Virus record (IMG/VR): IMGVR_UViG_3300045988_110853
Span: 68,077-132,076 of that record
DNA length: 64,000 bases
Source: a virus
Strand: one strand, 5' to 3'
Under the pieces are notes generated by a model. It was not told where the DNA came from, did no database searches, and saw nothing but the letters and a program-made list of their open reading frames with translations. Positions 10,713 to 41,190 of this stretch are shown one piece after another (position 1 is the first letter of the stretch; each line of letters opens with the position of its first letter). The position numbers and the translations under genes were made by a program.

Positions 10713-10999
10713 TACCGCCGGGCGGCACCCTTGCATCATACCTTTGCATTTTTATTCACTCAAAAATGAATAAAACCTGCATGGGGCGGGGTGTATTTCG
10801 GGAAAAATAAATTTTTATTTATTATTTTTTCTTTTGCCTGGTCAAAACACAATCTAAATCAATTTTCAATTTCAAATTACGGATTAAAACAATAATCTTA
10901 AATTACGATTTTTTCTTTCTGCCCCTTTTAGGCTTCTCTCTCCACATAAGGGTATATAATCCAGAAGTAGCAGAATAAGTAGCTTTCTGCTGATACTTT

Positions 11000-20555: not shown

Positions 20556-20572
20556 GAAAGGAGAAAAGGATA

Positions 20573-21679
20573 ATGTTAGATAAAAATAATTTAATTGCTC
20601 TTATGAAGCAAGTTGCTAAGGCTGATCCTTCTGCTCCTGTTGCTTATAGTTATGAGGGAAAAAATCTTAGTTATGAAGCCTTAAATGAAACTCTTCGTAA
20701 TGAAATGAATGAGTTAGCTGGTACTTATGCTCTTTATCGTGAAAATAAGAATCTTATTTTCTCTATGATTGAGCAGACTCTTGATGAGGTTCTTCCTAAG
20801 AAAGTTATTCAGCAATATGATCAGTTTGCTGAGGTTAAGACTTTCGCTCAGGGTGATAAGCCTATTTTCCGTCGTCCTCTTAATAATCGTGCTCGTGCTA
20901 AGTAGTTTGTAACTCGCGTTGGTCTTGCTGGTATTTATGAAGTCTTCAAGCTCGGACCTAAAGAGAATGAAGCCTTCGAGGTACGTACTAGCGCTATCGG
21001 CGGAGCTGCTCAGATTGGCTTCGAAGAGTTCCTTGATGGTCGTGTTGATTTCGGTGAAGTAACCAAGATCATCATGGATGGTATGGATGAACTTATTTAT
21101 AAAGAAGTCGCTGCTGCTCTTAGATCTTCTATCAATCAGCTTCCTCCTGCTAACCGCGTTGCGGCTGCCGGATTTGATGAAGCTGCTATGGATCGTTTGA
21201 TTACCATTGCTTCTGCTTATGGTACTCCTACTATTTATTGTACTTATGAGTTCGCTGTTAAGATGATTCCTCATGAGGCTTGGAGATATACTGAAGCTAT
21301 GAAGAATGAGCTTTGGAATAATGGTCGTCTTGCTACCTATAAGGGCACTAAGGTTATTATTCTTGAGCAGGGCTTTGAAGATGAAACCAATACTCGTAAG
21401 GTTATTGATCCTGGTTATGCTTGGGTTATTCCTACGGGCGCTGATGGTAAGCCTGTAAAGATTGCTTTCGAAGGTGGCACTATTGTTGACGAGTTCAATA
21501 ATTATGATCGTTCTCGTGAGATTCAGGTTTACAAGAAGGTTGGCGTAGTTTGTATGCTTGCTAACAACATCTGTGCTTATGTTGATACTTCACTTCTTGG
21601 TCAGATGTATACTTGGAATTATGATGGAGTCACTGGTAAGGTTATCACTTATGATGGCCGTCTTGATGGCACTGTTTAA
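20573..21679 (+). CDS. major capsid protein, presumed HK97 fold (368 aa; only 1 TAG)
   Basis: An AAAGGAGAAAAGG ribosome-binding site precedes it. Track ORFs 20573 and 21074 share one frame. The call rests on size and position. A strong terminator hairpin follows at 21695-21745. Confidence 0.6.
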
Positions 21680-21694
21680 TTTAATATAAATTAT

Positions 21695-21745
21695 TCCATG
21701 GGGAGAAGGGATTAAACTCCCTCTCCCCATATTTTTGTTTTATGA
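21695..21745 (+). terminator. strong hairpin GGGGAGAAGGGA..TCCCTCTCCCC plus a T-run after the capsid gene
   Basis: Read directly. Confidence 0.7.
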
Positions 21746-21765
21746 GTAAAAGGAGAAATTGAATA

Positions 21766-22359
21766 ATGATTAATAATGAAGATATTTATAATGTAAAAAA
21801 TAGAAGCACTAGTGTAGTTGTTTATACTATTCCTGATACTAATTTGCGCCGTGAATTTGCGCCCGGTGAGACTAAGCGCATTCCATTTGGTGAATTAGAG
21901 AAGTTGACTTATCAAGCGGGTGGCCGCGAATTGATTGCTAATTTTTTACAGATTTTAGAGCCAGAAGTAACTCATACTCTTAACGTTCATACTGAACCTG
22001 AATATAATATGTCAGAGCAGCAAGTTGCTGATTTAATTCTTAATGGCTCATTAGATGCTTTTTTAGACGCTCTTGATTTTGCTCCTATTGGAATTATTGA
22101 TTTAATCAAGAATTTGTCTGTTAGCCTTCCTATTACTGATATTAATAAGCGTAGAGCTTTGAAGGAAAAAACTGGGTTTGATGTTGATAAAGCTATTGCT
22201 AATGATATCGCTAGTAAAGAAGAAGATACTATTGTAGAGAAAGAACCTGCGGCTAAGCGTCGTGTAGTAAGAGAAGAACCTGTTACTCAAGGTCGTCGCA
22301 CAAGCGGTTCTGGATATAAAGTAATTAATAAAACCGAGGAAACTTCCTCCAAGAAATAA
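21766..22359 (+). CDS. hypothetical head protein (197 aa; no TAG)
   Basis: An AAAGGAGA ribosome-binding site precedes it. It is an intact ORF ending in TAA. Confidence 0.6.
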   Translation: MINNEDIYNVKNRSTSVVVYTIPDTNLRREFAPGETKRIPFGELEKLTYQAGGRELIANFLQILEPEVTHTLNVHTEPEYNMSEQQVADLILNGSLDAFLDALDFAPIGIIDLIKNLSVSLPITDINKRRALKEKTGFDVDKAIANDIASKEEDTIVEKEPAAKRRVVREEPVTQGRRTSGSGYKVINKTEETSSKK

Positions 22360-24312: not shown

Positions 24313-24894
24313 ATGAAGATTGATGGAGTAAAAATTCCTAAATCCAGTTTCTTATCTATGGAAAAGGATTTAGAAATTGTCGTAAATCATTTATGTAAAA
24401 ATGAAAGATTAAAACGTTTATTGTATTATACTACCCCAGATGCTATAGACAAGCCAAATCTGGATGATGAACAAATGATTTAGTTATTTAAGAAAAATAT
24501 TAAATTAATTCCTAAATTATACGTTGATGGTAGTGTTTTAAATTATGTCGTAATTAGTTTTGATAATTTTATTCCTAATGATACAAATCCAGAATTTAGA
24601 GATAATATTATTGAATTCGATATAGTTTGTCATTATGATTAGTGGCATTTAAAAGATTATTAGTTACGTCCTTATCGCATTGCTGCGGAAATAGATAGTA
24701 TGATAGATAAAACACATTTAACAGGTATTGGAAAATTAGAATTTCTTGGTGGTAACCAAATTATTTTAACTGATGAATACGCTGGTTTATGTCTTATGTA
24801 TACTGCTATTCATGGAGAAGAAGATAAGAAATTTATGCCAAATCCCAATGATGAAGAAAGATTTTTAAAAGACTTTTAGGATAGAACTAAATAA
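24313..24894 (+). CDS. hypothetical neck/tail-completion protein (193 aa; 4 TAG)
   Basis: An AAGGAGAAAAAGG ribosome-binding site precedes it. Its TAA overlaps the next ATG (TAATG). Confidence 0.5.
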
Positions 24895-25619
24895 TGGATT
24901 TACGTTTAGGCTTAATGTGCGGAATTGATTTACCAATACCAGAACTTTAGGCTACAATTCATTAGCCAAAGATAAAAGAGATTGCTTTTGTTGGTGAAAA
25001 AGATTTCTTCCTTGGGGTTCAATGTCTTTGTATTGATAAAAATATAATAGCCAATTAGGGCGAAAGTCTTTTAGTTAATACGAATAATTTTTAGATATTT
25101 ATGACAATGATGAAAGAAAAAGAGATGGCTGAAAAAAAAGATTCAGTTATAAATGTTTTTTCTCTTATATTTCCAAAATATAAAACTTTATTTACTCCAA
25201 GATCTATCATTTTACAAAGTGATACTTAGATAATGATTGATGATTCAAATTTTGAAATTCTTTAGGAATATTTAAAGGAAATATTTTGTTTTAAATCTTC
25301 TGTGTCTCAAGAACTGGGTTTTAACCCTGCTAATGATACTGCTAAAAAAATTGCAGATAAATTAATGAGAGGTAGATAGAGAGTTGCTGAATTAAATGGT
25401 TCAGCTAATGTTAGTATATTTAGTTAGTATCTTTCAATGCTTACTGTAGGTTTAGATTCAATGTCTCTACAGGATTTAATGGATTTAACAATGTTCCAAC
25501 TTTTTGACCTTGTTGAAAGATATTAGCTTTATATTAATTGGGATATTGATATTCGGTCAAGGCTAGCGGGCGGAAAACCTGATGGCAAACCGGAGAACTG
25601 GATGAAAAATATCCATTAA
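24894..25619 (+). CDS. hypothetical protein (241 aa; 9 TAG)
   Basis: Start is coupled to the upstream stop. It ends in TAA at 25617-25619. It is very TAG-rich. Confidence 0.45.
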
Positions 25620-25643: not shown

Positions 25644-26642
25644 ATGAAATTTGGTGTTCGCGAAATTTGCGATGTCGTTTTAAAGGCTAAGGCAACTCAG
25701 AAGGTTGGTAATAAAATCTTCTATAGAAATGAGCCAGTTATTTATTTCGACACTTTGAAAACTTCCAGTATGGAAGGCGCTGCTACCACTGTATATGCAC
25801 AGGGAGGACGCGGTAATGCTCGTTTAGTAGCCTGGGAAGGTGAGCGTACTGTTACCTTTACAATGGAAGATGCTCTTATTTCTCCAGAAGGTTTCATGAT
25901 TCTTTCTGGTGCTGGTCTTGTTGAAGCAAGTGCTACTAGTACTATTAAACAGCATGTTACTGAAACTGTAGATAAATCACAAATTGATAGTACAACTACT
26001 GAAGGACAAGTTACTATTCGTGTTTCTAAAAAGCCCTATCTTCCAACAGACGAACAAGAGAATTTTGCTTATGTTATGTTTGTCAAAGATGGCGAAATTA
26101 TCACTGAGCCTTTTATTCCTGTCCATGAGGAGTTAACTGCTAAGAAAGATACTAACGGTAATGAATATTTTGAATTAACTCTTAAAACTCCACATGATGA
26201 TTATATTGCTGGCACAGGTAATTATACTTTTAATGAAAAGAATGGCCTTCCAGCAGCCGCGGCATATGATAGCGCTATTGTTGATTATTATACTGAAAAG
26301 GCTAGTGGCGCTCAACAGATTGAGATTACTGCTGATAAATTCGGTGGTAACTATTATCTTGAAGCCTCTACTTTATTCCGTGATCAAAATGGTGTTGATA
26401 TGCCTGCTGAATTTATTATTCCTAACTGCAAGATTCAGTCTAACTTCACCTTTACAATGGCTTCTTCTGGTGATCCTTCTACTTTCACCTTTACTATGGA
26501 TGCTTTCCCTGACTATACTCGTTTTGACCACAGTAAGAAAGTTCTTGCTGCAATTCAAATTATTGAGGAAGGCGGAGCTAGTGACCTCCATCGTACTATG
26601 ACTGCTCACGACGAGGCTCACAATGCTTCTTTCACTGACTGA
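25644..26642 (+). CDS. major tail (tube) protein (332 aa; no TAG)
   Basis: A TTAAGGAGG ribosome-binding site precedes it. It is an intact ORF ending in TGA. The call rests on position upstream of the chaperone-like gene and the tape measure. A terminator follows at 26826-26866. Confidence 0.55.
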   Translation: MKFGVREICDVVLKAKATQKVGNKIFYRNEPVIYFDTLKTSSMEGAATTVYAQGGRGNARLVAWEGERTVTFTMEDALISPEGFMILSGAGLVEASATSTIKQHVTETVDKSQIDSTTTEGQVTIRVSKKPYLPTDEQENFAYVMFVKDGEIITEPFIPVHEELTAKKDTNGNEYFELTLKTPHDDYIAGTGNYTFNEKNGLPAAAAYDSAIVDYYTEKASGAQQIEITADKFGGNYYLEASTLFRDQNGVDMPAEFIIPNCKIQSNFTFTMASSGDPSTFTFTMDAFPDYTRFDHSKKVLAAIQIIEEGGASDLHRTMTAHDEAHNASFTD

Positions 26643-26816: not shown

Positions 26817-26825
26817 TTTATGGGA

Positions 26826-26866
26826 GAGAATAGAAATATTCTCTCCCATTTTTTTTATTTAGAGAG
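26826..26866 (+). terminator. hairpin GGGAGAGAATA..TATTCTCTCCC plus a T-run after the major tail protein
   Basis: Read directly. Confidence 0.7.
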
Positions 26867-26880: not shown

Positions 26881-27987
26881 ATGAATTCATTATAGAGAAG
26901 TATTAAGGCCAGTCCAAGAGAAATGAATACAGAAGATTTTTTAAAGAAATCTTATGAATTTACAAAAAGAAGTATGAGTTAGAAATTAAGAGCAAGAGAT
27001 ACTTCTGAAAAACAAGCTAAAAAATTAGAAGAATTCTTTCAAAGTATTCAAAATAGATAGCTTGGAAATCCTATCGAAAATATCCAAATGAGTGAATTAT
27101 TAGATGCTTTAGAATAGATTAATCCTTAGCTTTTTAATTCAATGAAATATTTATTTACTACGCCAGATAACTATGGAGATTCTAATGATGCGCATGGTAA
27201 ATATTTTGAAGGAGTTATTGCGGAAGCGGTTGCCACTGCGGAGAATTATTTTGCTGGTAATAAAACTATGACTATAAGTGGAAGTAGTAAAAAGGCTGGA
27301 ACCGCTTCTGTTAACCTTATAGATTTAGCAAAGAATTTAGATGAAGATACAAAAAGTCTAATGAATGATATTTATTAGAAAACTGCCCAAGAAATGAAAA
27401 AAGATAGTGAAGCTGCATCTTCTACAATAAAAGGAGTTTCTGGCAAAGCGGATATTATAGGAATTTAGTAGAATTATACAATATAGAAAACTAGTCATTT
27501 AGAATTAGATGAAGAAATTTATGATGCTTTATTAAATGCTACTTTTACTGCGAAAAATTATATGTCTAACACTTAGATTGAATTAGGATCTACTAATCCT
27601 TTTCGTGTTTTTATGACTATGATTCCTCTTGGAGGAGCTACAAGTAAAATTTAGAGATATTACCGTATGTTGGCTTGTAAATAGAAGCACTTTCCTGATA
27701 AGCATCCTGATGCACCAAAGTATTTTTATAGATTAAGAGCTATTTATGAATTAACTGGTGGAAAATCTAATTATACTAATACTGTATTAAATAAGCTAAT
27801 AGGTGGAAATTATACTAAATTTTTAGTTTTAAATTTATAGGGATATATAAGAGTTATTCCTACTTAGAGTGTCATAAAAGAGCTTATTGACAATATTGAT
27901 GATGATTAGTTTAATAAAGATATAGATTGGCAAAAGGCTTTATATGGACGTATTAGGATTAATCAAAATAAGTTTAGTGAAATTTAA
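26881..27987 (+). CDS. hypothetical protein (368 aa; about 17 in-frame TAG, the highest density in the window)
   Basis: A GAGAAAGGAGAG ribosome-binding site precedes it. The track ORF 27142..27378 is an internal fragment. It ends in TAA at 27985-27987. Confidence 0.5.
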
Positions 27988-27989
27988 AA

Positions 27990-28018
27990 TTGACTAAATA
28001 GAAAATTTTTTGTATAAT
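27990..28018 (+). promoter_or_regulatory. internal promoter TTGACT-N17-TATAAT upstream of the chaperone-like gene
   Basis: Read directly. Confidence 0.5.
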
Positions 28019-28045
28019 ATAATAAAGAGTAAAAGGAGGCTAATT

Positions 28046-28579
28046 ATGGCTAAAATTTCATATACTAAATTAGGAATTGGCAAGGAAGAATTGAATAAAG
28101 TTCAGACTGTAGAATATAATGATCAAACCATTGAAGTAAAGCAATATCTTCCAGTTGCAGAAAAGAGTGAATTAATTACTCGTGTATTAAATAATTCTGT
28201 AGATGAAGATAATGGATATTATAATCTTTTAAAGATGGATATGCATCTTGCACTTGAGATTGTTTATGCTTATAGCAATATTAATTTTACAGAAAAGCAA
28301 AAAGAGGATTCAGCGAAGCTTTATGATATGCTTAATGCTTCAAAGGTGCTTAATCTTATTATTGGTCTTATTCCAGAGGGGGAGTTTTATTATTTAAATA
28401 AGACTGTCCATGAAATGGCTAATAATATTGTGGCTTATCGCAATTCCGCGATGGGAATTATGGAGCGCATTACTACTGATTATAGCAATTTAAATTTTGA
28501 TGCTAGCACAATTCAGAAAGAGCTTGCCGATCCTAATAATATGACTTTATTGAAAGATATTCTCACTAAATTGGGCTAA
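28046..28579 (+). CDS. putative tail assembly chaperone (177 aa; no TAG)
   Basis: Its own promoter TTGACT-N17-TATAAT lies at 27990-28018 with an AAAGGAGG ribosome-binding site. The track start at 28010 is probably too far upstream. A terminator follows at 28621-28665. Confidence 0.45.
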   Translation: MAKISYTKLGIGKEELNKVQTVEYNDQTIEVKQYLPVAEKSELITRVLNNSVDEDNGYYNLLKMDMHLALEIVYAYSNINFTEKQKEDSAKLYDMLNASKVLNLIIGLIPEGEFYYLNKTVHEMANNIVAYRNSAMGIMERITTDYSNLNFDASTIQKELADPNNMTLLKDILTKLG

Positions 28580-28620: not shown

Positions 28621-28665
28621 TAATGGGGATAAGAGTATTTTATTACTCTTATCCCCTTTTTATTT
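28621..28665 (+). terminator. hairpin GGGGATAAGAGTA..TACTCTTATCCCC plus a T-run
   Basis: Read directly. Confidence 0.65.
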
Positions 28666-28708
28666 TTATTTTGCAAAGTAAAAATTAAGAGAGAAAGGAG
28701 ATTTTTTG

Positions 28709-31700
28709 ATGGCTAAACAATTAAATAGTTATCAAGTTAATTTACAATTTAATGCAAATACTACATAGGCGAAAACGCAATTGCAAGATTTGCAAACGAC
28801 CCTTGATGCTATTATAAAGGAATCTGTGGCGGGAGTCTCTAAAGGAGATTTTAATTTAACTAAAAGATTAAACGAAGCGCAGATAGCGGCATCAAAACTA
28901 CAAACCATTTTAGCTCAAACTACTAATGTAGAAACGGGAAAAATGGATTTAACAAGATTTTCTCAATCTTTAAAATAGAGTAATTTAGATTTAAAAAAGA
29001 TATAGAATAGTTTACTTGAGCTTGGGCCTTCTGGACAAAAAGCTTTTATGTCTTTAGCTCAATCTATTGTTGAAGCTGATGTTCCATTAAAAAGAACAAA
29101 TTTATTAGTTTCTGAATTATGGACAACTTTAAAGAATACAGCTCGTTGGTAGATTTCTTCTAGTGCATTACATGCATTTATGGGTACTATTCAATCTGCT
29201 TATGGATATGCCAAAGATTTAAATGAATCTTTAAATGATATTCGTATTGTTACTGGACACAATATTGAATATATGGATAAATTTGCTGAAAGAGCAAATA
29301 AAGCGGCGAAAGCGTTAAATGCTACTACATTAGATTACACTAATGCTTCTTTAATTTATTATCAATAGGGTTTAAGTGATGAAGAAGTAGAAAAAAGAAC
29401 AGATATTACTGTTAAAATGGCTAATGTCATTAAACAAAATGCTGATATTGTTTCTGATCAATTGACTGCGATTTGGAATAATTTCTATGATGGCTCTGAC
29501 TCTCTAGAACATTATGCTGATGCGATGGTGCGCTTAGGTGCAGATACCGCGTCTAGCTCTGATGAAATTGCTGGCGGTCTTGAAAAATTTGCGGCAGTTG
29601 CTAATACAATTGGTTTAAGCTTTGATAATGCAGCAGCTGCATTGGCTACTATTACTGCTACAACTCGTCAAAGTGAAGATGTAGTAGGTACTTCTTTAAA
29701 GACTATTTTTGCTCGTATTCAAGGTTTAAAATTAGGCGAGACTTTAGAAGATGGCACTACTTTAAATCAGTACTCACAAGCTCTTGCAGCTGTTGGAGTT
29801 AATATTAAAGACTCCAATGGACAATTAAAGGATATGGATATCATTCTTGATGATTTGGGGCACAAATGGTCAACAATTAGTAAAGATCAACAGGTAGCTT
29901 TAGCTCAGCAAGTAGCTGGTATCCGTTAGTACAACCAATTAATTGCTTTAATGGATAATTTTGATTTTTATCAAGAAAATATTCAAAGAGCAAAAGAAGC
30001 AGATGGTTCTTTACAAGAACAAGCTGATATTTATGCTGAAAGCTGGGAAGCTGCTCGTGATCGTGTGCGTGCAGCAGCCGAAAGCATTTATGATGATTTA
30101 GTTGATGATAAATTCTTTATTAGTTTATCTGATGCAATTGCTGGAGCTTTAGACGCTATTGATAAATTAATTGATTCTATAGGAGGTCTCCCAGGAGTAA
30201 TTGCCGCTCTTGGAATGATATTTACTAAAGTGTTTAAAGTTCAAATGGGCGAGGGCGTTAATAATTTAGTTTTTGGCCTTTAGTCTTTAGTTGGACTTAC
30301 AAAAAAGAGTGCAGTTTCTCTTAAACAAGAAGCTTATAATCGAGCTTCTAATATGGCTTTTGATACTGGTACTGAAGTTGGAGATAGATAGGGAGAATCA
30401 TTAAAATAGACTTTAGACTTAAAGAAAAGAATATATGATATATCTGAAAATATTACAAAAGAGGAAAAGCAATAGCTTGAAGGGTTAATTGAAATTAATC
30501 GAGCTTATAATGAACAGGCTATAAAAGCAGCTCAAAAAAAAGATTAGGCTAGTGAGAATCTTCAAAATACTCGCATGGATCTTAGAGCGCGCATAAGAAG
30601 AAATTCTGCCACTGGAGAAGTAGAGAAAAATTTAAATACTTTTGGAAATGTTCAATAGCAAATGAGTGGAATTATTAAAACTGGTTTGCGAGGAAGTAAA
30701 GCTTTAGACGGACTTAATAAAGCATTAAAAGAAGGAAGTCCATTAGGAAAAGCTTTTGAGGGTAGAATGAATACAATTCAGTAGGCTTTAATTAAAGTAG
30801 ATAGATCTGAAGCAGCTGAATCTATTGGAAATTTTGTTAAAGAGTTAAAGGACGGAACTATAACAGTAGATTAGTTCTTGAAAAAAGTAAATAATGTTGT
30901 CACTAAAGAAAATTTAATGGCTGATGCTACATTTAAAGCAGCAACTGTTCTTGAGGATGACTTTGGTAAAAAAGTTAAAATTAACGGTGAGGATTGTCAA
31001 AAGCTTGCTGAAGATATGACTGAAGTTATTGTAACAACAGATAAATTAAATACTACTAATAAGCAAGTTGCTGGGTCTTATGAAAAAATAAAAGCTGCAA
31101 TTGAAAATTATAAAAATGCTACTGGAGATTTAGGGTAGAAATTAATTTCTATGGTTAATGGTTTTTCTTCATTGGCTATGGGATTGGCTTCCATTAAGAG
31201 TATTTTTGATACTTTATCTGATGAAGATATGTCATTCTTTGATAAGCTTTTGTCAGTTAGTATGTCTTTAGGCATGGGTATTTCTATGACCGTTTCTGGT
31301 TTATCTACTATGGCTAAAGCTTATAAAGAATTGGCAGAAGCTAAAATTTTAGATAATATAAAGACTTCGCTTAATACGGCTATTACAGAGATTAATAATG
31401 TGGTAAAAGCTTAGGCAGCCGCCAGAACAGGAGCTCAAACAGAAGCTACCGGTAGATAGGTATTGGCTGAAAGCAAACTTACAAAAAATATAATATTGTA
31501 GAATGCCGCTTGGTTAGTCCGTAATAAACAGATGTCCGCAACAGCAGCTCTTGGATTAAGTTTAGCTGGTACTATATTAGTTGTAGTTGCAGCTGCAGCA
31601 GCTTTAGTACTTATATCTAAAGCAGTTTATAATTCCATTCATAAAGAAGAAATAGCAGCTGAAGCAGCAGCTAAAGCGGCTTCAGATCTTGGTAATGCTT

Positions 31701-34700
31701 ATGATGAGTGTCGTGAAAAGTATCAGCAAATGATTGATGAGTTTAATGAATACAAAGATGCCATAGATGCTTTGGATAATTTAACTAAAGGAACTCAAGA
31801 ATATCGTGATGCTTTAGAGGAAGCTAATCAAAAGGCTTTAGAATTAATCCAAAATAATCCTGATAAATTTAATAAAGATGATTATTATTGGGATGATAAT
31901 AAATTAGTTATTAAAGATACAGCTATGTCTCGTGTAGCTGAAACCAGTAGACAAGAGACTGTAGATTTATAGGCTACTTCTGCTATGGCTAATGCCAATA
32001 ATGCTCAAGCATAGGCAAATTTATAGAAAAAAAATCTTGTCGATACTGTCACTGGTTCTTTACGCAACACAACTGGCATAGATAAAACTATTGACGCTTA
32101 TTTAAATAGTGATAGAGTTGCTGTTGATAAGGAAGACTTAAAAGATATCCTTAATCTTGATAATGGTATAGACGATAAGGCTTTAATTAATGTCCTTTGG
32201 CGCAATATTGATGCTTTAAATGAGTTAAGAAATACCATGGATGGGGTTGAAACCTCTTTTGATCTTGCTAGTAAAACCGCAGCAAGAGCGCAATGGTCTG
32301 GTTCTGGTAAAGAAAATACTAAAGCTGGAAAAATGGCGCTTGAAGGTGGCGGAAGATTATATAATAATCTTTATGCTGAGGGAGAAAATACTGTTAAAGG
32401 TTATTCATTAGACACTAATTGGGCTGCCTATGAAAAAATGAATAATTTGAATTCTCTAAAAGGATATAAACGTTCTATTAAAAGCGATAAAGTTGAATAT
32501 AGTTATTATGATGAGAATGGTGAAAAGATAACTTAGGAAATCAGTAAAGAAGCTATTCAAATCGCGGCCGCAACCCAATATGCTAATGATAGGATTGGAG
32601 AAGCTTTAGATAGTTTATATCAAAATATTGCTAAAGCTAACAAAGATGGTCTTGATAGCGTAGGGAAATATTTATCAACAGAAAATTTTGATAATATGAC
32701 AAAAGGCGAGCTTAAACAATTTTAGGGATTAACTGATGATTAGTTAAGGGAATATGGAATTGATAAACAAGCTATCGAAGAAGCTAAAAAAGTTGTATTT
32801 GATGAAATTGATGGTCTTAATGAAGCTATGAGTGATTAGATCACGGTTGGAGTAAATAAGACTTTAAAAGAAAATATTTAGAATTTCGGCTCTGAAGGTA
32901 AAGATGCCTATATTAGTGCTATCAATCAAATTGGTGAATCTATTGATTGGAATGCTTTATCACCAGAATCTTAGGCTGAGGCTTGGAATAAGATTTCTAA
33001 TATTAATTGGTTTGATTTCGATGCTCAACGCCAAGCTGAAAACTTAATTAAAGAAATGGGCGGAGATGTTTCTACTCTTGGAGATAACTGGGATAAAGCT
33101 TTTAGTTAGATGCGTAAAGCTGGAGATGTTGTTCCAGTATTAACTGATATTAAAGAGCGTCTTGATAAAATAGATAGTATTACTAAAGACATGAAAATCG
33201 GTAAGATTTTAGAAAAAGAAGATTATGATACTTTAGTAAATTATAATAGTGAATTGGCAAGATATTTTACTATTTTATCTGATGGATCTGCTGTTTTTGT
33301 AGGTGATCCTCTCGATTTCCAGTAGATGATTAAATCCACTAAGCAAGATGAATTAAGTAGAACTATAAATGGATATCAAAATGCTATTGATTAGTATTAT
33401 GCGGGAGCTGAAGAACTTAAAAAAGCGGGTGGATTAGATTAGATTCGAGAAGTTGGTTCTGAAAATGTTAATAGCCAATTAGCATTTTTAAAGACTTAGA
33501 ACTACGATGAAACATAGATTTCTGATTGGATTGGTAAGCTTGCTAATTCTAGAGGATAGGATATTGATACTTTAAAAGCTATTGCTGAAGCAGTTAATGA
33601 AGTTGGTGATTCTTTCTTATCTAGCAAAGATAGTATAGAACAATATACAGCAAGTAGTCAATAGGCTATGAATGAATTGGCAATGACCACCGAAACTGCT
33701 CAAGAAGCAGAAGAAATGCTTAAAAATGGTAGTATCAATGAAATGGCTTATAATATGAGTGCCATGCAGCGTATGTCTGGTGAAAAATGGGAAAATTTAG
33801 ATTCATCTGAAGTAAATAAATATGCAGATTCTTTAATGAAGACAGCTAAAAGTTCTAAACTATTAAGTGATGAACTTGTAAATAATAAAGAGGCCGCTGA
33901 AGATGTAGCTCTTTATACTATAAAAATGAATAATGGCGTAGAGAAATTGAAAAATGGTTTTAGTGGATGGGCTGATATATTAAAGAAATCTGATTCTGCT
34001 TCACAGGAATATTATGATGCAATGATTGATATTAAAGATGCCATGTCTGATGTACTTGGGGTTTCAGAAGAATTTTTAACTGATGAGTTTATTACTAAAA
34101 ATTTAACTGATATAGGTAAGGCGGCAGAAGGTGACGCTGATGCTATAGATCGTTTGGCAGCCGCGGCAAGTAAAGATATTCTTTTAAATGTTGATTTTGT
34201 TTAGGATAATAAGCAATTACAAGATGTTTTATTATCAATGCATGATAAATTAGCGGCAGAAATTCCAGATATAAAAATTGGTACAACTTTTGAAGGTCAA
34301 GATGATTTAGTTAGATAGGCTCAAAATATTATCGGCACAGCGAAAATGACCGCCGAATAGGCAAATGCTTATTTTAGTGCCATGGGCTTTGAAACTAAAT
34401 TTAAAGTTGAACCTCAAGAAGTTGAATAGAGAACTCCAATAGTACATACTAGATAGTCAATAGTTGACGCGGGATTTAAAGACGGAGTTCCTTATTGGGA
34501 AACAACAACAGAAACTTGGAATGACGGATATAGTATTCAAAAAGGTTATGTTGATGCTATTGCTATGGCGACCTCTCCTGATGGAACGAAAACTCCGATT
34601 ATTGAAAGTATGACTAGTAAGCCTACTGGAATTATGAATAATAGTTCAAAGACTAATAGAGGTACTACAGGCTCAAGCAAAGGTGGAGGAAGTAAAAATA

Positions 34701-37627
34701 AACCAACCAAGGGAGACCTAACTAAAAAAAGCGATGTTGTTGATCGGTATAAAGAAATTACTGATAATATCAATGATACTACTCGTGCTTTAGACAAAGC
34801 TAATAAATCGGTAGATAGGCTTTGGGGTAAAGCTCATCTTGATGCAATGGCTAAAAGCAATAAGTTAACTTTAAAAGAAGTTGATTTATTAAAACAAAAG
34901 CAAAAAGAAGCTTAGGCTTATTTAAAAACAGATAAAGCTACTTTATAGCAAGCTGCGAAAAAAGCTGGAATTACTTTCACATTTGATGAAGATGGTGATA
35001 TTTCTAATTATACTGATTAGATGACTAAACTTTATAATTAGCTCATAGCTGCTTAGAATAAAGCAAATTCTTTTTCCACAAAAGATGCTCAAGATGCTTA
35101 TAAAGAAGCAACTTTAGACCCGATTCAAGAGAAAATCAATGAGTTGAAAGATGCTATTAAGCAATATGAAGATACAAGAGATTTAGTCGAAGAATTAACT
35201 GATGATATTCAAGATAAAATAAACGAATGGCAAGATAGAAATTATCAAATGCTTACTTATGAAGTTGAAATAAAAGTTCAATTAGATGAAAATGACACTA
35301 AAAAATTAGAATATTATTTCGATAAATTAAGTGATAATATTTATAAAGCTGCTGAAGCTCTTGGATATTTACAAGGTCAATTTGATCCAGTAATTAGTCA
35401 GTTAGGAACTTATGAAAATTTCTATGGCTAGTTAAATAGCGCTTATTCTAATGGAGAAATTTCTCAAGAAAATTATATTGAAGGCTTGTAGGATGTGTAT
35501 GACAGTACATTAGATAATTTAAATGCTTTGTAGGATTTAGATAAAGAAATGCTTGAATACTATGGTAATACTATAGATTTGGCAAATGATGAATTGTCTA
35601 AATATACAGATCATATGGAACATTTAACCAGTGTATTAGATCATTATCGCTCTATTATTACTTTGTTAGGTAAGGATAAAGATTATGATAAAGTCTTATC
35701 AGTTCTAAATGGAACTGCTTAGACTAAGAAAAATAACTTTGATGTTTCTAAACAATGGTATGAGAGTTTGAAACGTGAACGTGATGCTGCGGCCGCGGCC
35801 TTAGCCAATTCGACCGATGAAGCGGAACGTGAAGTGCTTCAAAAGAATTACGATGCTATATTAGCCGCGTTCGATGAAGCGGAAGAGGATATGCTCTCTA
35901 AAGCAGAAGAATATGGCGAAGCATTAAAAGAAATTCTTACTACGAAGATGGAACAAGCTGCTGATGAAATGAATAAGCAATTAAGCACCACTAAAGTAAG
36001 TATTAATGGTAATAATTTTAATATTTCTGGTTGGGATGCTTTAAATGATGCTTTAGATAGAATGTCTTCTTATCAAGATGAATATTTAACAAAAACTAAT
36101 CAGATTTATGAAATGAATAAACTACTTAATAATGTTAATTAGGCTATTGATAAGACAAATAATCAAGCAGCTAAAAATAGATACCAGCAATTTACCAAAG
36201 AAATTGAATAGTTAAGAGATAAAGATAAATTAAGTCAATTAGAATTAGAAATTGCTTAGGCTAAATATAAAGTGCTTGAAGCACAGATCGCATTAGAAGA
36301 AGCTCAAAATGCGAAATCTACTGTTAGATTACAACGCGATAATGAAGGTAATTTTGGTTATGTATATACCGCAGACCAAGAGAAAGTAAATGACGCACAA
36401 TAGGCTTTGGCAGACGCGGAAAATGACTTGTATAATATTCGTCTTAATGCGACAAATAAATACGGCCAGCAAAAACTCCAATATGAGAAAGAGCTGGCTG
36501 AAAAGCTCGCGGAACTTGATTAGAAGGCCGCGGAAGATGCAGTTTACCGCGAGACTACGTATCAGCAAGAGCGCGCTTTGGTAATTCAACAATATACTGA
36601 TTTGATTACTACTGCTGGAAATCTTTATGCGAAAGCACAAGAGGAAGATAGTAGAGTAGTTCAAGACGCTTGGGTAAATTCTTTTGATATCATTAAAGAT
36701 AATAGTAATAGTTGGAAAGATACTATTACTGAAAATACTAATATTATTAATGACACATTTAAAGAATGGCAAGATAGTATGGATGAAATCACTAAGATTG
36801 TTGGTGATGATTTAAAAGATACTCAATAGAAAGTTAAAGATGTCACCGATGAAAGTGATAAACTTTATCAAGAAGTATCTAATAAAGTTATTCCTGCTCT
36901 TGAAAGTGAATTAAGTTCTGTTCGTAGTGCAACTGAAGCCTGGGCGCAACATCGTCAGTAGTTGCTTGATACTATTAGAGCTTATGAAGAGCTTTTAGAT
37001 GCCATTCAAGCAACATTACGTGCTTAGAGCGGATTTGGTAATAGCGGTTCTAGCGGTGGAGATACTGACTGGGCGGCGATGATGGGTACTGTAGCTTATG
37101 GTTCCGCTCAATATAATCAGTATAAGAGAAACCGCGAGGAAAAAATTGCTAATGGTGGTAGTATTAATGAAGATACTACGGCTCGAGTTGATGCGTATTA
37201 TAAATTGTTAAGTGAAGGAAAAATCTCTGGTAGACTTCCTAACGGTAAGTATAGTTTTACTCAACTTACTGATTAGGAGTGGAGAGATTTAGTCGGATTT
37301 AGAAGTGGCGGTTATACCGGCACTTGGAACGATGATGGCAAGTTAGCTTTCTTACATCAGAAAGAATTAGTTCTTAATGCTGATGATACTGAAAATATGT
37401 TAGCTTCTATTCAATTAGTTAGATAGATTGCCAAACAATTAGATTTCAATAGTCAACAAATTTCTACTCTTTCATCTTCTGGATTTACTGTTAGTTCTCA
37501 AGATGGAACATTAGAATAGAATGTTAAAATTGAAGCTAGCTTCCCGAACGCAACTGATAGATATGAAATTCAAGAAGCATTTAATACATTAGTTAATGTA
37601 GCTTCTCAATATGCCAATAGAAAATAA
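28709..37627 (+). CDS. tail tape measure protein, about 2972 aa, with about 95 in-frame TAG codons
   Basis: A GAGAAAGGAG ribosome-binding site precedes it. Fifteen track ORFs (28781, 29180, 29417, ... 37079) all lie in frame 2, and a codon-by-codon walk found no TAA or TGA in frame. A TP901-family tape-measure core sits at about 29417-29929 (...DEIAGGLEKFAAVANTIGLSFDNAAAALATITATTRQSEDVVGTSLKTIFARIQG...). A TM segment reads MSATAALGLSLAGTILVVVAAAAALVLI. A GGSSGG-rich C-terminus follows. It ends in TAA. Confidence 0.8.
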
Positions 37628-37631
37628 AATT

Positions 37632-37672
37632 AAGGGTGAGGTCGCGGACTTCACCCTTTTTCTTTTTGGGTA
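37632..37672 (+). terminator. hairpin GGGTGAGGTCGCGGACTTCACCC plus a T-run after the tape measure gene
   Basis: Read directly. Confidence 0.7.
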
Positions 37673-37740
37673 ATTATATTGAATAAAATTAATTAATTTT
37701 TTAGAAAATTATAGAGTAATGAGTAAAAGGAGGGATTATT

Positions 37741-40700
37741 TTGGCTGATAACGCACTAAATATTCAAGAAAGTTTATGTCAAGCAATGAGTATTATTGCT
37801 AATTCAAGTGTTGATAAAGTTAAATTTGATAGCACTATTGAATGTACTATTATTGATGCGACTGATAAACTTATTGGTAAGTATAAGGTTAAAAATGAAT
37901 CTTATGCGGAATTTTATGCTTATTCCCAAATAACCACTTATAACAAAGATGATAAAGTGTATGTATAGATCCCAAAAGGAGACTATAATAGCACTAAATT
38001 TATTGTTGGTAAAAAGACTGATAAAAATGAAGATAAGCCATATAATTTTGTTAATCCTTTTAATACTTTTATTGATTTAACTGGAAACTTTTTTGTTGCT
38101 AAAGATAATAACAAAGAAGTTTGGAGTATTTTAGCCAATGGTAGTGAAAAAGAAATTGAGATTACCCCAAAAGGCGGAATTACTTTTACTGATGAATAGC
38201 AAGGATTTACGCGGTTGGGCCTGCGCGCTGATTTTCGCGCCTGGCTTGAAACGCTCGGCGTAGTCAGTGGTAATTATGGATTAAAATTAAATATATATGG
38301 TATAAAAGATGATACCGCAGATAATATTAAAAAGATAGAAGCAAGTATCAAAAATAATGGAGAAGTTCCTTTGATAGCATCTATTGATTTAGATACTAAT
38401 GATATGTATGGTAATCCTTATAATTTTGAAGGATATTATTCTCAAGAAATTGTCATTGATACAAGCGCGGTAGCAAAAATATACAATATAAAAATATACC
38501 TTTATCAAAAAGGTAATTTTAAAGATAGTAATAATGATTTAATTAGCTATACTAATGATTTTAATATGTCAGTCCCGCCTAATAATATTTTTGTAAAAGA
38601 TATATATATGGGATTAGGTATTTCTGCCGATGAAATTGAAAATGAATATGTAAGATTATATTCATTAGATGGAAGTACCTATGTAATTGATGATAAAGGT
38701 TAGATTGATTCTAAAACCATTAGACTAAAATGGGTTCATTTTGATGAAGATGGTAATAGAGTCCAAATAACCGAGCATAAAAAAGAGGACACATTTGAAG
38801 TTCGTTGGTATATGTATGAATTTGGGGCACCTTCCGCTGATGACTATTCTGGTGTCTATTGGACTGCGATTGAAGATAATAAAAATAATTTCTTTTATTA
38901 GCTAAAACCGCGTTCTAATAAAAATCAAGAACAAGTTAAAGTAATTATTTTATATAATGGAAAAGTTTATAGAAGTAATATAATTACTTTTAATAATGAG
39001 AAACAAGTTCCTAATGATGCAACCATTGATAGCTTAAATGCTTTATCTATTTATTGTGAAGATTAGACTAATGGTAATTATTTAATTTATAATTAGGCTA
39101 ATTATTTAATGAATAGATCAGATGGTAAGATTAGTCGTAAATTAACTTTACATTTTGATTCTAAGACTTATGCTATTACTAATGGTATAATTGGTAAGAA
39201 TCAAAATGGAGAAAGTAAATTAGTTGAGGCATAGAGAGTAATTTGGTAGATTCCTATTAAAAATACTATGCTTAATTTTGGCGTTAAAGATGATGGAACT
39301 GATGCTACTTATAAAGAAGTTGTAATTGATTTAACTAATGAAAATGTTAATGTGTCTCCTGGAGAGTTTTCTTTAGATTATACTATTAATACTTTTTATA
39401 GTGCTAATAAATCTAATAATACTGTAATTGCCAAAGTGGAAAAAGATGGTATCGTTTATACTGCTATCAAGGATTTTACTTTTGGATAGGCAGGAACCAA
39501 TGGCACTGATTGTACTTTGGTAATTGATATGGTTGCCCATGAAAACTTAAATAATAAAGTATTTACTGCTATTAGAAGTGGTGTGAGAGATAAGTATATT
39601 TTTAAGGCTTAGTTATATGATAATGAAGGCAAAGAAGTTACTAATTTTAATAACTGTAAATGGGCCTGGAAATTCATGGATGGTTCAACGGTTAATAGTG
39701 TTAGTTTAAATAATGAAAATGAATAGAGTTGTAAGTTAAGTGTTAATACTACAAATTCTATAATGAATAATTTAATTATTTTATAGGTGACACTATCTGG
39801 TTGGGGAGATTATGATTTAACCGCTTATTATCCAGTTCCTATTATGACTTTAGATAACGCTTATATAAATGGCCCAACTGAAGTAATTTATTTAAGTAAT
39901 GGCGAACCTGTATTTTCTAAAGAGCCTTATAAATTATTTGAAAATGGTAAAGTAGATAATAATGCGACTTGGAGTATTTATCCTACTGGATCTACAGATA
40001 AATTTATTGGTTAGATTAAATATAATGAAAAGAAAAAAGAATATAGATTAAGTCCTATGAATTTTTATGTTGATGGTGTAAGTACTTATGGAGTTCAAGG
40101 AAAATAGAGTGATAATGTAGTTTGGAGCCAACCTATTTTAGTTATTTAGAATAAATATCCATCAGCAATGGTAAATAAATGGGATGGATAGTTAAATATA
40201 GACGATAGTAATAATTTTATTGGTGTTGCTTAGATTGCGGCTGGTAAAAAAGAAAATAATAATACATTTACTGGCGTTTTAATGGGGTCTTTTGGTGATG
40301 GTAATGCCGATAGCAGTCTTAGTAAAAACACTGGGGTTTATGGCTATTATCAAGGTAAGTAGGTTTATGCTTTAAAAGATGATGGAACCGCAACATTTGG
40401 TAAATCTGGAAATGGTTAGATTGAAATTAAAGGCGATTCTGGAAAAATAAAATCTGCTGGTTATGATAATGGCAATGGTCTTTTAATTGATTTATTGAAT
40501 AATAAAATAGATGGAATAAAAAATGATAATAGTGTATTTTAGTTAAGTTAGAGCGAACCTTTTTTAAAAATAAATACCCCCGTGGAAAATAGTAATTAGA
40601 CACCAACTACTTTATTAAGTGTTGGAGCTAGCACTTATTATTTATAGTCAAAAAATTATAATGCTTCCACTAATACTGGCACTTATTTTAATTTGAACAC

Positions 40701-41190
40701 AGGAAATATTACAACAAATAATATTACTGTAAATAGTGGAACATTTAAAGATGATATTATTATTAATTATAATGGTGTAGCTGGGTCTACTTGGACCTAT
40801 GGCAATTAGAGTTTAAATTATATATTGAATAAGATTGGAAGTACGGCAGCTGAAGCTAGTAAAGCTGCTAAGGAAGCTAAAGATCTTACTGAAGCATCTG
40901 TAGGATGGATTGACAGAATAGATCAAGCTTAGGGTAGAGCTGATGAAGCTATTAGTGGACTATCATATGTTGGTGAAGTTCTTAATTATAAAAGAGAAAC
41001 TGGAAATGTCTATTTGCATTATTGGGGGCAAACGGGCTACGGATAGCCTCGAGTATATTTAGACGGCACTATCGCGGGTTTATCCGCTGGAAGAAGTGCT
41101 TTAAATGTGTCTGATACATCTGTTTATTTACAGGGAGAAGTAAAAATAATTGGTTCATTAACAGTTAATGGAAAAGAAATTACTGGTTAA
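37741..41190 (+). CDS. distal-tail-like protein with a long C-terminal fibre-like extension (about 1149 aa; about 35 TAG)
   Basis: A TTG start follows AAAGGAGGG. Track ORFs 37741, 38215, 39268 and 39787 share frame 1. It ends in TAA. The C-terminus has a beta-rich fibre-like sequence with a coiled segment. Confidence 0.55.
38196..38275 (+). other. GC-rich island of 80 nt (about 60% GC) inside an otherwise about 30% GC gene
   Basis: The sequence is CAAGGATTTACGCGGTTGGGCCTGCGCGCTGATTTTCGCGCCTGGCTTGAAACGCTCGGCGTAGTCAGTGG. It contains a GCGCG..CGCGC hairpin. It resembles the GC-rich hairpins of the early-region cassettes. Confidence 0.5.

What the first reader, a model, noticed from the sequence alone, without database searches (positions are those of the whole stretch)
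28709..37627. Exceptionally long tape measure gene (about 8.9 kb, about 2970 aa)
A single frame runs from the ATG at 28709 to the TAA at 37625, once about 95 TAGs are decoded. It carries a canonical TP901-family tape-measure core, a transmembrane segment and long coiled-coil-like repeats. At about 0.15 nm per residue this predicts a non-contractile tail longer than 400 nm. That places the virus among the longest-tailed siphoviruses. It also means tail length depends critically on efficient TAG read-through.
Basis: partly seen in the sequence, partly recalled or inferred. Interest (0 to 1): 0.6.

Follow-up and report, generated by a model that had tools for sequence, protein, structure and literature searches.

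The report
Long TAG-recoded phage tape measure gene
This is a real 2,972-residue tail tape measure gene of a gut phage that reads TAG as glutamine, predicting a non-contractile tail of about 420-440 nm, but equally long and equally recoded tape measures are already described in its relatives, so it is ordinary for its lineage.

Summary
Window 28709-37627 (+) is one frame of 2,972 sense codons ending in TAA, with no internal TAA or TGA. It has 60 in-frame TAGs, not about 95.

It is a single tape measure protein (TMP) gene:
- It matches TIGR01760 at 101 bits (cutoff 28.8) and PF10145.
- Its neighbours are syntenic with Enterococcus phage VRE9_2.
- The same frame is intact in 25 IMG/VR relatives (2,578-3,114 aa). 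Three of them have 0-2 TAGs, so the frame is open there under the standard code, or nearly so.

TAG means Gln: 106 of 159 TAG-to-other-codon swaps among close relatives are CAA or CAG.

The tail tube protein is homologous to those of large siphoviruses with measured tails. Tsamsa has a 3,123-aa TMP and a 440 nm tail. phiL47 has 3,275 aa and 480 nm. That calibration predicts about 420-437 nm here.

"Exceptional" is overstated. Recoded TMPs of 3,149-3,209 aa are published for phAss-1 and relatives, and P23-45 has 5,002 aa.

Premature stops should lower tail yield rather than shorten tails, because the C-terminus nucleates assembly.

No suppressor tRNA was found. Verdict: a new member of a known kind, of low interest.

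The parts
28709..37627 (+). Tape measure protein gene: 2,972 codons plus TAA, 60 in-frame TAG read as Gln, predicted mass 330 kDa
   Evidence: The frame is intact in 25 relatives.
28695..28700 (+). Shine-Dalgarno AAGGAG, 8 nt before the ATG at 28709
   Evidence: Sequence read. Relatives start at the aligned position.
29177..30226 (+). Conserved N-terminal TP901-type tape measure core (aa 157-506; PF10145 covers aa 197-404)
   Evidence: TIGR01760 at 101 bits. PF10145 at E=1e-26. 63-83% identity to distant relatives. Synonymous changes far outnumber non-synonymous ones.
30206..34408 (+). Fast-evolving, indel-rich central ruler region (aa about 500-1900). It contains hydrophobic stretches at aa 812-869.
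   Evidence: 10-25% identity to relatives, with gaps concentrated at aa 1100-1700. Synonymous and non-synonymous changes are about equal against close relatives, and there is a mosaic block in L007.
31538..31627 (+). Strong transmembrane-like hydrophobic segment (aa 944-973, ATAALGLSLAGTILVVVAAAAALVLISKAV)
   Evidence: Kyte-Doolittle 19-residue peak of 2.63. Coordinates.
34409..34717 (+). Pro/Gly/Ser/Thr-rich non-helical linker (aa 1901-2003) between the variable middle and the conserved C-terminal module
   Evidence: 8 of the 21 prolines fall in aa 1751-2000. Heptad score is near zero at aa 1901-2000. Coordinates.
34709..37624 (+). Highly conserved C-terminal module (aa 2001-2972), mostly long alpha-helices with one beta-hairpin at aa 2539-2556 (36323-36376). 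The C-terminal motif GGYTGTWNDDGKLAFLHQKELVLNADDT (37307-37390) is shared with the Tsamsa, phiL47 and VRE9_2 tape measures.
   Evidence: 50-90% identity to relatives. Synonymous changes far outnumber non-synonymous ones. BLASTP to cultured phage TMPs. AF2 model of a 61%-identical homologue is about 85% helix, pLDDT 70.6. No fold match below E=1e-3.
28625..28666 (+). Intrinsic terminator (13-bp stem plus T-run) between the chaperone-like gene and the tape measure gene
   Evidence: A hairpin plus T-run sits about 66-88 nt upstream of the TMP start in 24 of 25 relatives (about 80-88 nt in 23 of these), with different stem sequences in the divergent ones.
37632..37668 (+). Intrinsic terminator (12-bp stem plus T-run) starting 5 nt after the tape measure stop codon
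   Evidence: Similar hairpins were seen in several relatives (that scan was crude).
25644..26642 (+). Tail tube (major tail) protein, 332 aa, no TAG
   Evidence: phrog_2729. tblastn hits lie under genes annotated 'tail tube' or 'major tail protein' in Bacillus phages Kirov, Izhevsk, KoopaTroopa and Thrax. The protein also matches Tsamsa gp230, phiL47 orf172 and the Enterococcus EF5/VRE9 phages. The AF2 model was too poor to use.
28046..28579 (+). Probable tail assembly chaperone, 177 aa, no TAG
   Evidence: phrog_30570, which directly follows the tube gene in VRE9_2. The function is inferred from position only. No G/GT-type frameshift signature was found.
37786..41190 (+). First gene after the tape measure gene (1,134 aa, 26 TAG): presumed distal tail or tail tip protein
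   Evidence: Position only. No Pfam or PHROG match.

Best explanation
Window 28709-37627 encodes one 2,972-residue (330 kDa) tail tape measure protein. The phage is a large siphovirus of Gram-positive (Bacillota) hosts that reads TAG as glutamine in its late genes.

The protein has four parts:
- a conserved TP901-type N-terminal core;
- a long, fast-evolving helical middle that carries hydrophobic, transmembrane-like segments and absorbs the length variation;
- a short Pro/Gly/Ser-rich linker;
- a strongly conserved, mostly helical C-terminal third, ending in a motif shared with the tape measures of Tsamsa, phiL47 and the Enterococcus phages.

By analogy with lambda gpH and the TP901-1 TMP, the proposed mechanism is as follows (all inferred). 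A few copies are kept soluble by a chaperone. Their C-termini dock on the distal tail initiator. Tube subunits polymerise around the extended helices until the N-terminus is reached. This fixes the tail at about 420-440 nm.

All 60 TAGs must be read as Gln to reach the C-terminus. The full-length fraction is the per-codon decoding efficiency to the 60th power: 55% at 0.99 and 5% at 0.95. Decoding must therefore be nearly complete. Incomplete decoding would reduce the number of tails rather than shorten them (inferred).

Shown here: frame continuity, family membership, TAG=Gln, conservation as one gene, and kinship with siphoviruses whose tails have been measured by EM. Inferred: the assembly mechanism, the tail length and the effect of premature termination.
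For: Frame and chance:
- There are 0 TAA/TGA in 2,972 codons, against 131-447 in the other five frames.

Family:
- TIGR01760 at 101 bits and PF10145.
- PHROG tape measure families 4211 and 34405, whose profiles are 2,625 and 2,675 positions long.

Context:
- The neighbouring genes carry the same PHROGs in the same order as Enterococcus phage VRE9_2, whose annotated TMP is 2,673 aa.

One gene:
- All 25 IMG/VR relatives keep one TAA/TGA-free frame of 2,578-3,114 aa.
- L019, L020 and L026 have 2, 0 and 0 TAGs.
- Synonymous changes greatly exceed non-synonymous ones in aa 2001-2972, which lie downstream of 40 TAGs.

TAG=Gln:
- 106 of 159 TAG-to-other-codon swaps among relatives of at least 80% identity are CAA or CAG.
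- TAG aligns with Q 3.4 times more often than background in the low-TAG relatives.
- TAG=Gln is published for the related phAss-1 (PMC10607447).

Siphovirus and length:
- The tube protein is homologous to those of Tsamsa, PBC2, Izhevsk, Kirov, Sundance and the lactococcal 949 group.
- Tsamsa has a 3,123-aa TMP and a 440 nm non-contractile tail.
- phiL47 has a 3,275-aa TMP and a 480 nm tail.
- TP901-1 gives 0.145 nm/aa.

Helical nature:
- Proline is 0.7% of residues.
- An AF2 model of a 61%-identical C-terminal homologue is about 85% helix.
Against: - No suppressor tRNA, and no tRNA of any kind, was found in the window. None was found in about 30 kb to the left or about 10 kb to the right in relatives' contigs. 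The decoding agent is therefore unidentified.
- No particle has been seen, so morphology and tail length rest on homology.
- The tube protein's own AF2 model was too poor (pLDDT 52) to confirm a tube fold directly.
- No canonical G/GT frameshift chaperone pair was detected.
- The C-terminal third is conserved far more strongly than a passive ruler needs, so part of the protein may do something else.
Confidence: 0.9

Rival explanations
1. Only part of the 2,972 residues acts as ruler. A substantial portion, for instance the highly conserved C-terminal 970 residues or the N-terminal core, would be cargo or an ejection, membrane-channel or enzymatic module carried inside the tail. P23-45 is a precedent: the N-terminal part of its 5,002-residue tape measure is a virion RNA polymerase. 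Under this reading the tail would be clearly shorter than 0.15 nm times the residue count.
For: - The C-terminal third is 50-90% identical among relatives whose middle region is only 10-25% identical, and it is under strong purifying selection.
- A Pro/Gly/Ser-rich linker separates it from the rest.
- The Tsamsa tape measure runs as two bands of 280 and 100 kDa. The 100 kDa band is close to the 111 kDa predicted for aa 2001-2972 here.
- The P23-45 precedent (PMC10770324).
Against: - Tsamsa and phiL47 have the same architecture class. Their measured tails match the full residue count at 0.141-0.147 nm/aa.
- No Pfam, NCBIfam, PHROG or PDB-sequence hit lies outside the N-terminal core.
- The C-terminal homologue model is about 85% long helices and matches only SMC-type coiled coils, none below E=1e-3.
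Confidence: 0.1
2. The frame is not translated as one polypeptide. Some TAGs would act as real stops, giving a shorter tape measure plus separately initiated downstream products.
For: - TAG is a stop in the standard code.
- No suppressor tRNA was found in or near the window.
- The most abundant virion genes avoid TAG, so decoding capacity may be limited.
Against: - Relatives with 0-2 TAGs encode the same protein as one ORF of 2,578-2,871 aa.
- Cultured standard-code relatives have single TMPs of 2,673-3,275 aa.
- TAG swaps mainly with CAA and CAG.
- TAGs are spread evenly from codon 20 to codon 2937. The first stop would leave a 19-residue peptide.
- Nearly every late gene in the window carries TAGs.
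- The C-terminal part is under purifying selection in this frame.
Confidence: 0.03
3. The phage is a myovirus. The protein would still be a tape measure, but of a contractile tail, so the 'long-tailed siphovirus' reading would be wrong.
For: - A table in PMC6435515 lists the related Enterococcus phages EF1 and EF5 under Myoviridae, without micrographs.
- The tube protein could not be confirmed structurally.
Against: - No sheath or baseplate-wedge family was found by Pfam or PHROGs in any gene between the capsid genes and the end of the window.
- The 332-aa protein upstream is homologous to the tail tube or major tail proteins of siphoviruses verified by EM, namely Tsamsa and phiL47/949.
- The phAss-1 paper regards such TMPs as typical of siphovirus morphology.
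Confidence: 0.03

Closest known systems
Tape measure proteins of phage phAss-1 and relatives BK046881_ctckW2 and BK025033_ct6IQ4 (proposed genus Phassvirus, 'Caudoviricetes code 15 clade'; PMC10607447)
   Same: Human-gut phages of the same broad lineage. Their late genes, including the TMP, are interrupted by many TAGs read as Gln. The TMPs are 3,149-3,209 aa. My own reading of OQ749652 gives a 3,150-codon TAA/TGA-free frame.
   Different: Only the N-terminal core is detectably similar (30% identity over aa 124-652). phAss-1 carries a tRNA array that includes tRNA-Sup(CUA), whereas none was found here. The phAss-1 genome is 136 kb, whereas relatives of this window lie on contigs of 160-200 kb.
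Tape measure protein of Enterococcus phages VRE9_1-4, EF1/EF5 and H1 (about 140 kb; PHROGs 4211 and 34405)
   Same: The best cultured match. The structural module is syntenic PHROG for PHROG. The TMP is 2,673 aa. Similarity covers the N core, part of the C-terminal module and the C-terminal end.
   Different: These phages use the standard genetic code, with no in-frame TAG. Their TMP is about 300 aa shorter. Identity is only 22-42% in the aligned pieces.
Bacillus phage vB_BanS-Tsamsa gp226 (3,123 aa), with lactococcal phage phiL47 orf166 (3,275 aa) and phage 949
   Same: Homologous tail tube and a syntenic head-tail module. They share the TP901 core and the C-terminal motif. Measured non-contractile tails are 440, 480 and 500 nm, which calibrates the ruler at 0.141-0.147 nm/aa.
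   Different: Standard code. Their TMPs carry about 500 extra residues N-terminal to the core, and are longer than the one here.
TP901-1 tape measure protein (937 aa), the experimentally dissected reference for the family
   Same: Same N-terminal family (TIGR01760). Mostly helical, with hydrophobic regions and an essential C-terminal end. It behaves as a ruler at 0.145 nm/aa (PMC5099701).
   Different: It is one third of the length, has tandem repeats in the ruler part (none here), and uses the standard code.
Thermus phage P23-45 / P74-26 tape measure protein (5,002 aa)
   Same: A giant TMP of a siphovirus with an extremely long tail. This shows that 2,972 aa is not near the known maximum (PMC10770324).
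   Different: It is unrelated in sequence, and its N-terminal part is a virion RNA polymerase. No enzymatic domain was found here.

Membership tests
TP901-family phage tail tape measure protein (TIGR01760 / PF10145) | Match to the family model above the curated cutoff | tested here: met
   TIGR01760 at 101.2 bits against a cutoff of 28.8, covering aa 157-506 and model positions 4-342 of 349. PF10145 at 94.5 bits against 33.2.
TP901-family phage tail tape measure protein (TIGR01760 / PF10145) | Gene lies between the tail tube and chaperone genes and the distal tail genes of a tail module | tested here: met
   Tube homologue at 25644-26642 and chaperone-like gene at 28046-28579 lie upstream, with large tail genes downstream. 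The order matches VRE9_2, Tsamsa and phiL47.
TP901-family phage tail tape measure protein (TIGR01760 / PF10145) | Predominantly alpha-helical, proline-poor, with hydrophobic segments | tested here: met
   21 Pro in 2,972 aa and a transmembrane-like segment at aa 944-973. An AF2 model of a 61%-identical homologue of aa 2001-2972 is about 85% helix. The rest of the protein was not modelled.
TP901-family phage tail tape measure protein (TIGR01760 / PF10145) | Conserved C-terminal end of the kind needed to dock on the Dit/Tal initiator | tested here: met
   aa 2861-2972 align at 40-51% identity with the C-termini of the VRE9_2, phiL47 and Tsamsa TMPs. The docking itself was not tested.
TP901-family phage tail tape measure protein (TIGR01760 / PF10145) | Protein length sets tail length (deletions shorten the tail) | not testable with these tools
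   Needs virions and micrographs. The only indirect support is that Tsamsa and phiL47 fit 0.141-0.147 nm/aa.
TAG-to-Gln recoded phages (genetic code 15) | Essential genes are open only if TAG is a sense codon | tested here: met
   The TMP has 60 TAGs, TerL has 7, the portal candidate has 9, and nearly all + strand genes carry TAGs. All of them end in TAA or TGA.
TAG-to-Gln recoded phages (genetic code 15) | TAG corresponds to Gln in homologues | tested here: met
   106 of 159 swaps are with CAA or CAG. Q is the commonest residue opposite TAG, at 20% against a 6% background.
TAG-to-Gln recoded phages (genetic code 15) | Phage-encoded suppressor tRNA(CUA) | tested here: inconclusive
   There are no tRNAs in the window or in about 40 kb of flanks in relatives. 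The genome is incomplete here. Some recoded phages lack such a gene (PMC10607447).
TAG-to-Gln recoded phages (genetic code 15) | An early-gene block compatible with the standard code | tested here: met
   The minus-strand block at 1-11.5 kb has few in-frame TAGs. Its ORF stops are TAA 17, TGA 15 and TAG 1.
Large long-tailed siphoviruses of Bacillota (Tsamsa-like, 949-like, EF1/VRE9-like, phAss-1 group) | Homologous tail tube and TMP in a syntenic head-tail module | tested here: met
Large long-tailed siphoviruses of Bacillota (Tsamsa-like, 949-like, EF1/VRE9-like, phAss-1 group) | Long flexible non-contractile tail seen by EM | not testable with these tools
   Known only for cultured relatives. 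No sheath family was detected here.

The most novel reading that the evidence does not exclude
Tape measure supply may be gated at two levels in this lineage. The first is a conserved intrinsic terminator. It lies 53-84 nt upstream of the TMP start in the window and 66-88 nt upstream in 24 of 25 relatives, with different stem sequences in the divergent ones. The second is the need for 60 successive TAG-to-Gln decoding events. Together these would make tail nucleation, the step limited by tape measure supply, a late switch that depends on suppressor availability. In addition, the unusually conserved C-terminal 970 residues, set off by a Pro/Gly/Ser linker, may be a separate functional module. 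It could be released by cleavage, as the 280 and 100 kDa Tsamsa bands hint, and act in genome delivery rather than as a ruler.
Probability: 0.12. Interest if true: 0.5.

Novelty: new member of a known kind. Interest (0 to 1): 0.2.

Why it matters
The practical value lies in annotation. Under the standard code this gene breaks into dozens of 'hypothetical proteins', as in the GenBank record of phAss-1, where 17 CDS lie under the match.

Recognising it as one 330 kDa tape measure places the contig in a very abundant lineage of gut phages. It also gives a testable morphology: a flexible tail of about 420-440 nm.

The gene is a stringent natural reporter of TAG decoding, since 60 consecutive events are needed for any functional product. 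This supports the view that decoding is essentially complete late in infection.

None of this is new in principle. Long tape measures in this lineage and TAG-to-Gln recoding of them are both published.

Tried and rejected
- A megablast of the gene against 50,697 phage records found nothing. Only protein-level searches were informative.
- AlphaFold of the tube candidate from a shallow alignment (all sequences at least 70% identical) gave pLDDT 52, so no fold search was attempted on it. Profile and sequence searches of it against PDB sequences were empty.
- Pfam found nothing in 10 neighbouring proteins, and PHROGs gave almost no functional names.
A 61%-identical database homologue (P0122) was modelled instead. 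Its Foldseek search against the PDB returned only generic coiled coils.
- The suppressor tRNA hunt failed. ARAGORN was run on the window, on 25 TMP loci, and on three sets of flanking loci reached by walking along relatives' contigs. All were negative. A pattern scan based on the phAss-1 tRNA-Sup was considered and dropped as too unspecific.
- Literature searches for micrographs of EF1/EF5, VRE9, H1 or PMBT10 found none. The 'Myoviridae' label for EF1/EF5 in PMC6435515 is a table entry without data.
- A search for a G/GT-type frameshift chaperone pair found no extension frame.
- The idea of internal repeats was rejected.
- The overlapping frame 37212-37673 (154 codons, 9 TAG) was not analysed further and is presumed spurious.

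Full report
**1. The observation**

Window 28709-37627 (+) starts with ATG and ends with TAA. It is 8,919 nt long and contains 2,972 sense codons. It has no in-frame TAA or TGA and 60 in-frame TAGs.

The other five frames of the same stretch contain 131-447 TAA+TGA codons, so an open frame of this length in 32.5% G+C DNA is not chance.

An AAGGAG ribosome-binding site ends 8 nt before the ATG. The nearest in-frame upstream stop is the TAA at 28679.

The whole + strand block from 11.96 kb to 63 kb behaves the same way. Almost every long frame is open only if TAG is a sense codon, and all of them end in TAA or TGA.

**2. What the gene is**

With TAG translated as Gln, the product matches two curated families:
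- TIGR01760 (tape_meas_TP901) at 101.2 bits against a cutoff of 28.8, over aa 157-506;
- PF10145 at E=1e-26, over aa 197-404.

It also matches seven PHROG tape-measure families. The best two have profiles 2,625 and 2,675 positions long.

The neighbouring genes carry PHROGs 4088, 30998, 3853, 31155, 6123, 4051, 2729 and 30570. That is the order found upstream of the annotated 2,673-aa tape measure of Enterococcus phage VRE9_2. The 'canonical TP901-family core' and the tape-measure assignment are therefore confirmed.

**3. One gene or several?**

A scan of IMG/VR with the N-terminal 530 residues returned 25 related loci. In every one, the homologous frame runs without TAA or TGA for 2,578-3,114 codons and carries 0-108 TAGs. 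Three relatives (L019, L020, L026) have 2, 0 and 0 TAGs. In L020 and L026 the same protein is therefore a single ORF under the standard code.

Cultured standard-code relatives also have single tape measures:
- VRE9_2, 2,673 aa;
- Tsamsa, 3,123 aa;
- phiL47, 3,275 aa.

Codon differences against the closest relatives (L003, L005, L007) were counted in six blocks of about 500 codons. In L003:

| Region (aa) | Synonymous | Non-synonymous |
|---|---|---|
| 1-500 | 30 | 4 |
| 2001-2500 | 72 | 14 |
| 2501-2972 | 102 | 13 |

The region translated only after 40 or more TAGs is thus under purifying selection in this frame.

**4. What TAG encodes**

Among relatives of at least 80% identity, there are 159 alignment columns where one sequence has TAG and another has a different codon. 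In 106 of them the other codon is CAA or CAG. Opposite TAG, the low-TAG relatives have Q in 20% of cases against a 6% background, followed by E and K. This is the signature of code 15.

TAG supplies 32% of the Gln positions in the tape measure, and the TAGs are spread evenly from codon 20 to codon 2937.

The agent that decodes TAG was not found. There is no tRNA gene in the window or in the 25 TMP loci. There is none in about 30 kb to the left or 10 kb to the right in relatives' contigs. The distant relative phAss-1 has a large tRNA array that includes tRNA-Sup(CUA).

**5. Anatomy of the protein**

- *N-terminal core (aa about 100-500).* It is 63-83% identical to relatives outside the closest group (L003-L007), whose overall TMP identity to the window is 26-64%.
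- *Middle (aa about 500-1900).* It is only 10-25% identical to those same relatives and holds most indels (aa 1100-1700). Synonymous and non-synonymous changes are about equal even between close relatives. L007 carries a replaced block here. This region contains the hydrophobic stretches and the strong transmembrane-like segment at aa 944-973.
- *Linker (aa 1901-2003).* It is rich in Pro, Gly, Ser and Thr.
- *C-terminal module (aa 2001-2972).* It is 50-90% identical across relatives. Its last 60-110 residues align with the C-termini of the VRE9_2, phiL47 and Tsamsa tape measures.

There are no internal repeats. Proline makes up 0.7% of residues.

An AlphaFold model was made of a 61%-identical database homologue of the C-terminal module. 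The model is about 85% long helices with one beta-hairpin and a less ordered last 200 residues, at pLDDT 70.6. Foldseek against the PDB found only SMC-type coiled coils, none below E=1e-3. No enzymatic domain was detected by any library.

**6. Morphology and tail length**

No sheath or baseplate-wedge family was found anywhere in the module.

The TAG-free 332-aa protein at 25644-26642 is homologous to several tail proteins:
- proteins annotated 'tail tube' or 'major tail protein' in Bacillus phages Kirov, Izhevsk, KoopaTroopa and Thrax;
- Tsamsa gp230;
- phiL47 orf172 and the rest of the lactococcal 949 group;
- the corresponding protein of the Enterococcus phages.

Tsamsa has a flexible non-contractile tail of 440 nm and a 3,123-aa tape measure. 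phiL47 has a 480 nm tail and phage 949 a 500 nm tail. These values give 0.141 and 0.147 nm per residue, in line with 0.145 nm for TP901-1.

Applied to 2,972 residues, this predicts 419-436 nm. Subtracting about 127 residues for the embedded ends, as was done for TP901-1, gives 413 nm.

**7. Is it exceptional?**

It is not exceptional within its lineage. The window's tape measure sits in the middle of the range listed above.

The combination of a very long tape measure with TAG recoding is already published. phAss-1, BK046881_ctckW2 and BK025033_ct6IQ4 have recoded tape measures of 3,149, 3,150 and 3,209 aa. The same paper links that group to Enterococcus phage EF1 (PMC10607447).

The known maximum is much higher: 5,002 aa in Thermus phage P23-45 (PMC10770324).

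The lineage is also very common.

**8. Read-through and tail length**

The full-length fraction equals the per-codon decoding efficiency to the 60th power:

| Per-codon efficiency | Full-length fraction |
|---|---|
| 0.99 | 55% |
| 0.95 | 4.6% |
| 0.90 | 0.2% |

Decoding must therefore be nearly complete.

In TP901-1 the C-terminal 60 residues are essential. The C-terminus is proposed to dock on the Dit/Tal initiator, and a mutant with a large C-terminal deletion lacks tails. A fragment ending at a TAG lacks that end, so it should be inert rather than give a short tail. Read-through should thus govern tail yield, not length. This point is inference.

The genes for the most abundant virion proteins carry 0-1 TAG. 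These are the capsid candidates, the tube and the chaperone-like gene. Low-copy large proteins carry 10-41 TAGs per 1,000 codons. This fits limited decoding capacity or deliberate down-tuning.

**9. Rival readings**

- *Part of the protein is cargo rather than ruler.* This keeps about 10%, because the C-terminal third is so strongly conserved and because the Tsamsa tape measure runs as 280 and 100 kDa bands.
- *The frame is split into several products.* This is very unlikely for the reasons in section 3.
- *The tail is contractile.* This is very unlikely for the reasons in section 6.

**10. Verdict**

The feature is real and is correctly identified as a tape measure gene. The TAG count, the 'repeats' and the claim of exceptionality need correcting. 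It is a new member of a known kind and of low interest as a discovery. Its value is mainly for annotation, and as a stringent natural reporter of TAG decoding.

Noticed in passing
window 28625-28666 (+), also 26820-26849 and 37632-37668; relatives L003-L027, about 66-88 nt upstream of the TMP start: The tape measure gene is bracketed by strong intrinsic terminators, and a third follows the tube gene. The upstream hairpin keeps roughly the same position in 24 of 25 relatives, yet its stem sequence differs completely in the divergent ones (L020, L021/L023, L027). This suggests selection for the structure, for example to attenuate tape measure transcription relative to the tube and chaperone genes.
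   Followed up: partly
window 19638-22359, 25644-26642 and 28046-28579, versus 24894-25619 and 26881-27987: TAG use is very uneven. The capsid candidates, the tube and the chaperone-like gene have 0-1 TAG and prefer CAG, and the local G+C rises to 38%. The ORFs at 24894-25619 and 26881-27987 have 37-41 TAGs per 1,000 codons, about two thirds of their Gln positions.
   Followed up: partly
window 51640-59346 (+): A second giant frame of 2,568 codons with 40 TAGs. It has only a sub-threshold BspA-type leucine-rich-repeat hit near the C-terminus. VRE9_2 also encodes a giant (2,533-aa) protein (phrog_33923), but there it is the second gene after the TMP, whereas here four to five genes intervene. 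It is probably a tail fibre or adhesin.
   Followed up: partly
window 1-11500 (- strand): A block of about 30 small minus-strand ORFs with 40-42% G+C, against about 30% in the rest of the window. TAG is almost never used as a stop (TAA 17, TGA 15, TAG 1), and there are few in-frame TAGs. This looks like an early-gene block readable under either code.
   Followed up: partly
window 1-64000; loci L003-L027, L031-L049, L110-L136: ARAGORN found no tRNA gene in the window, or in about 30 kb to the left and 10 kb to the right in relatives' contigs. The distant relative phAss-1 has more than 30 tRNAs, including tRNA-Sup(CUA). Where TAG decoding comes from is unresolved.
   Followed up: yes
window 26881-28579: Gene order between tube and tape measure differs from VRE9_2, Tsamsa and phiL47. 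Here a TAG-rich 368-aa ORF with no PHROG or Pfam match sits between the tube and the chaperone-like gene. No G/GT-type frameshift extension or second chaperone ORF is visible.
   Followed up: partly
L007, aligned to TMP aa 1501-2000 (window about 33209-34708): In an otherwise 93-96% identical relative, this 500-codon block has 139 non-synonymous and 69 synonymous codon differences. This indicates a recombinational replacement inside the variable ruler region.
   Followed up: no
window 25644-26642; proteins P0001-P0120: The tube protein belongs to a Pfam family (PF27173) that is absent from the local Pfam copy. The lineage is therefore very abundant in metagenomes, and its genomes may be larger than the roughly 140 kb of cultured relatives.
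   Followed up: no
L001 (OQ749652.1, 5246-14713): The GenBank record of phAss-1 annotates the tape measure region as 17 separate 'hypothetical protein' CDS, although the paper re-annotated it with code 15. This is a concrete case of recoded genes being fragmented in public records.
   Followed up: no
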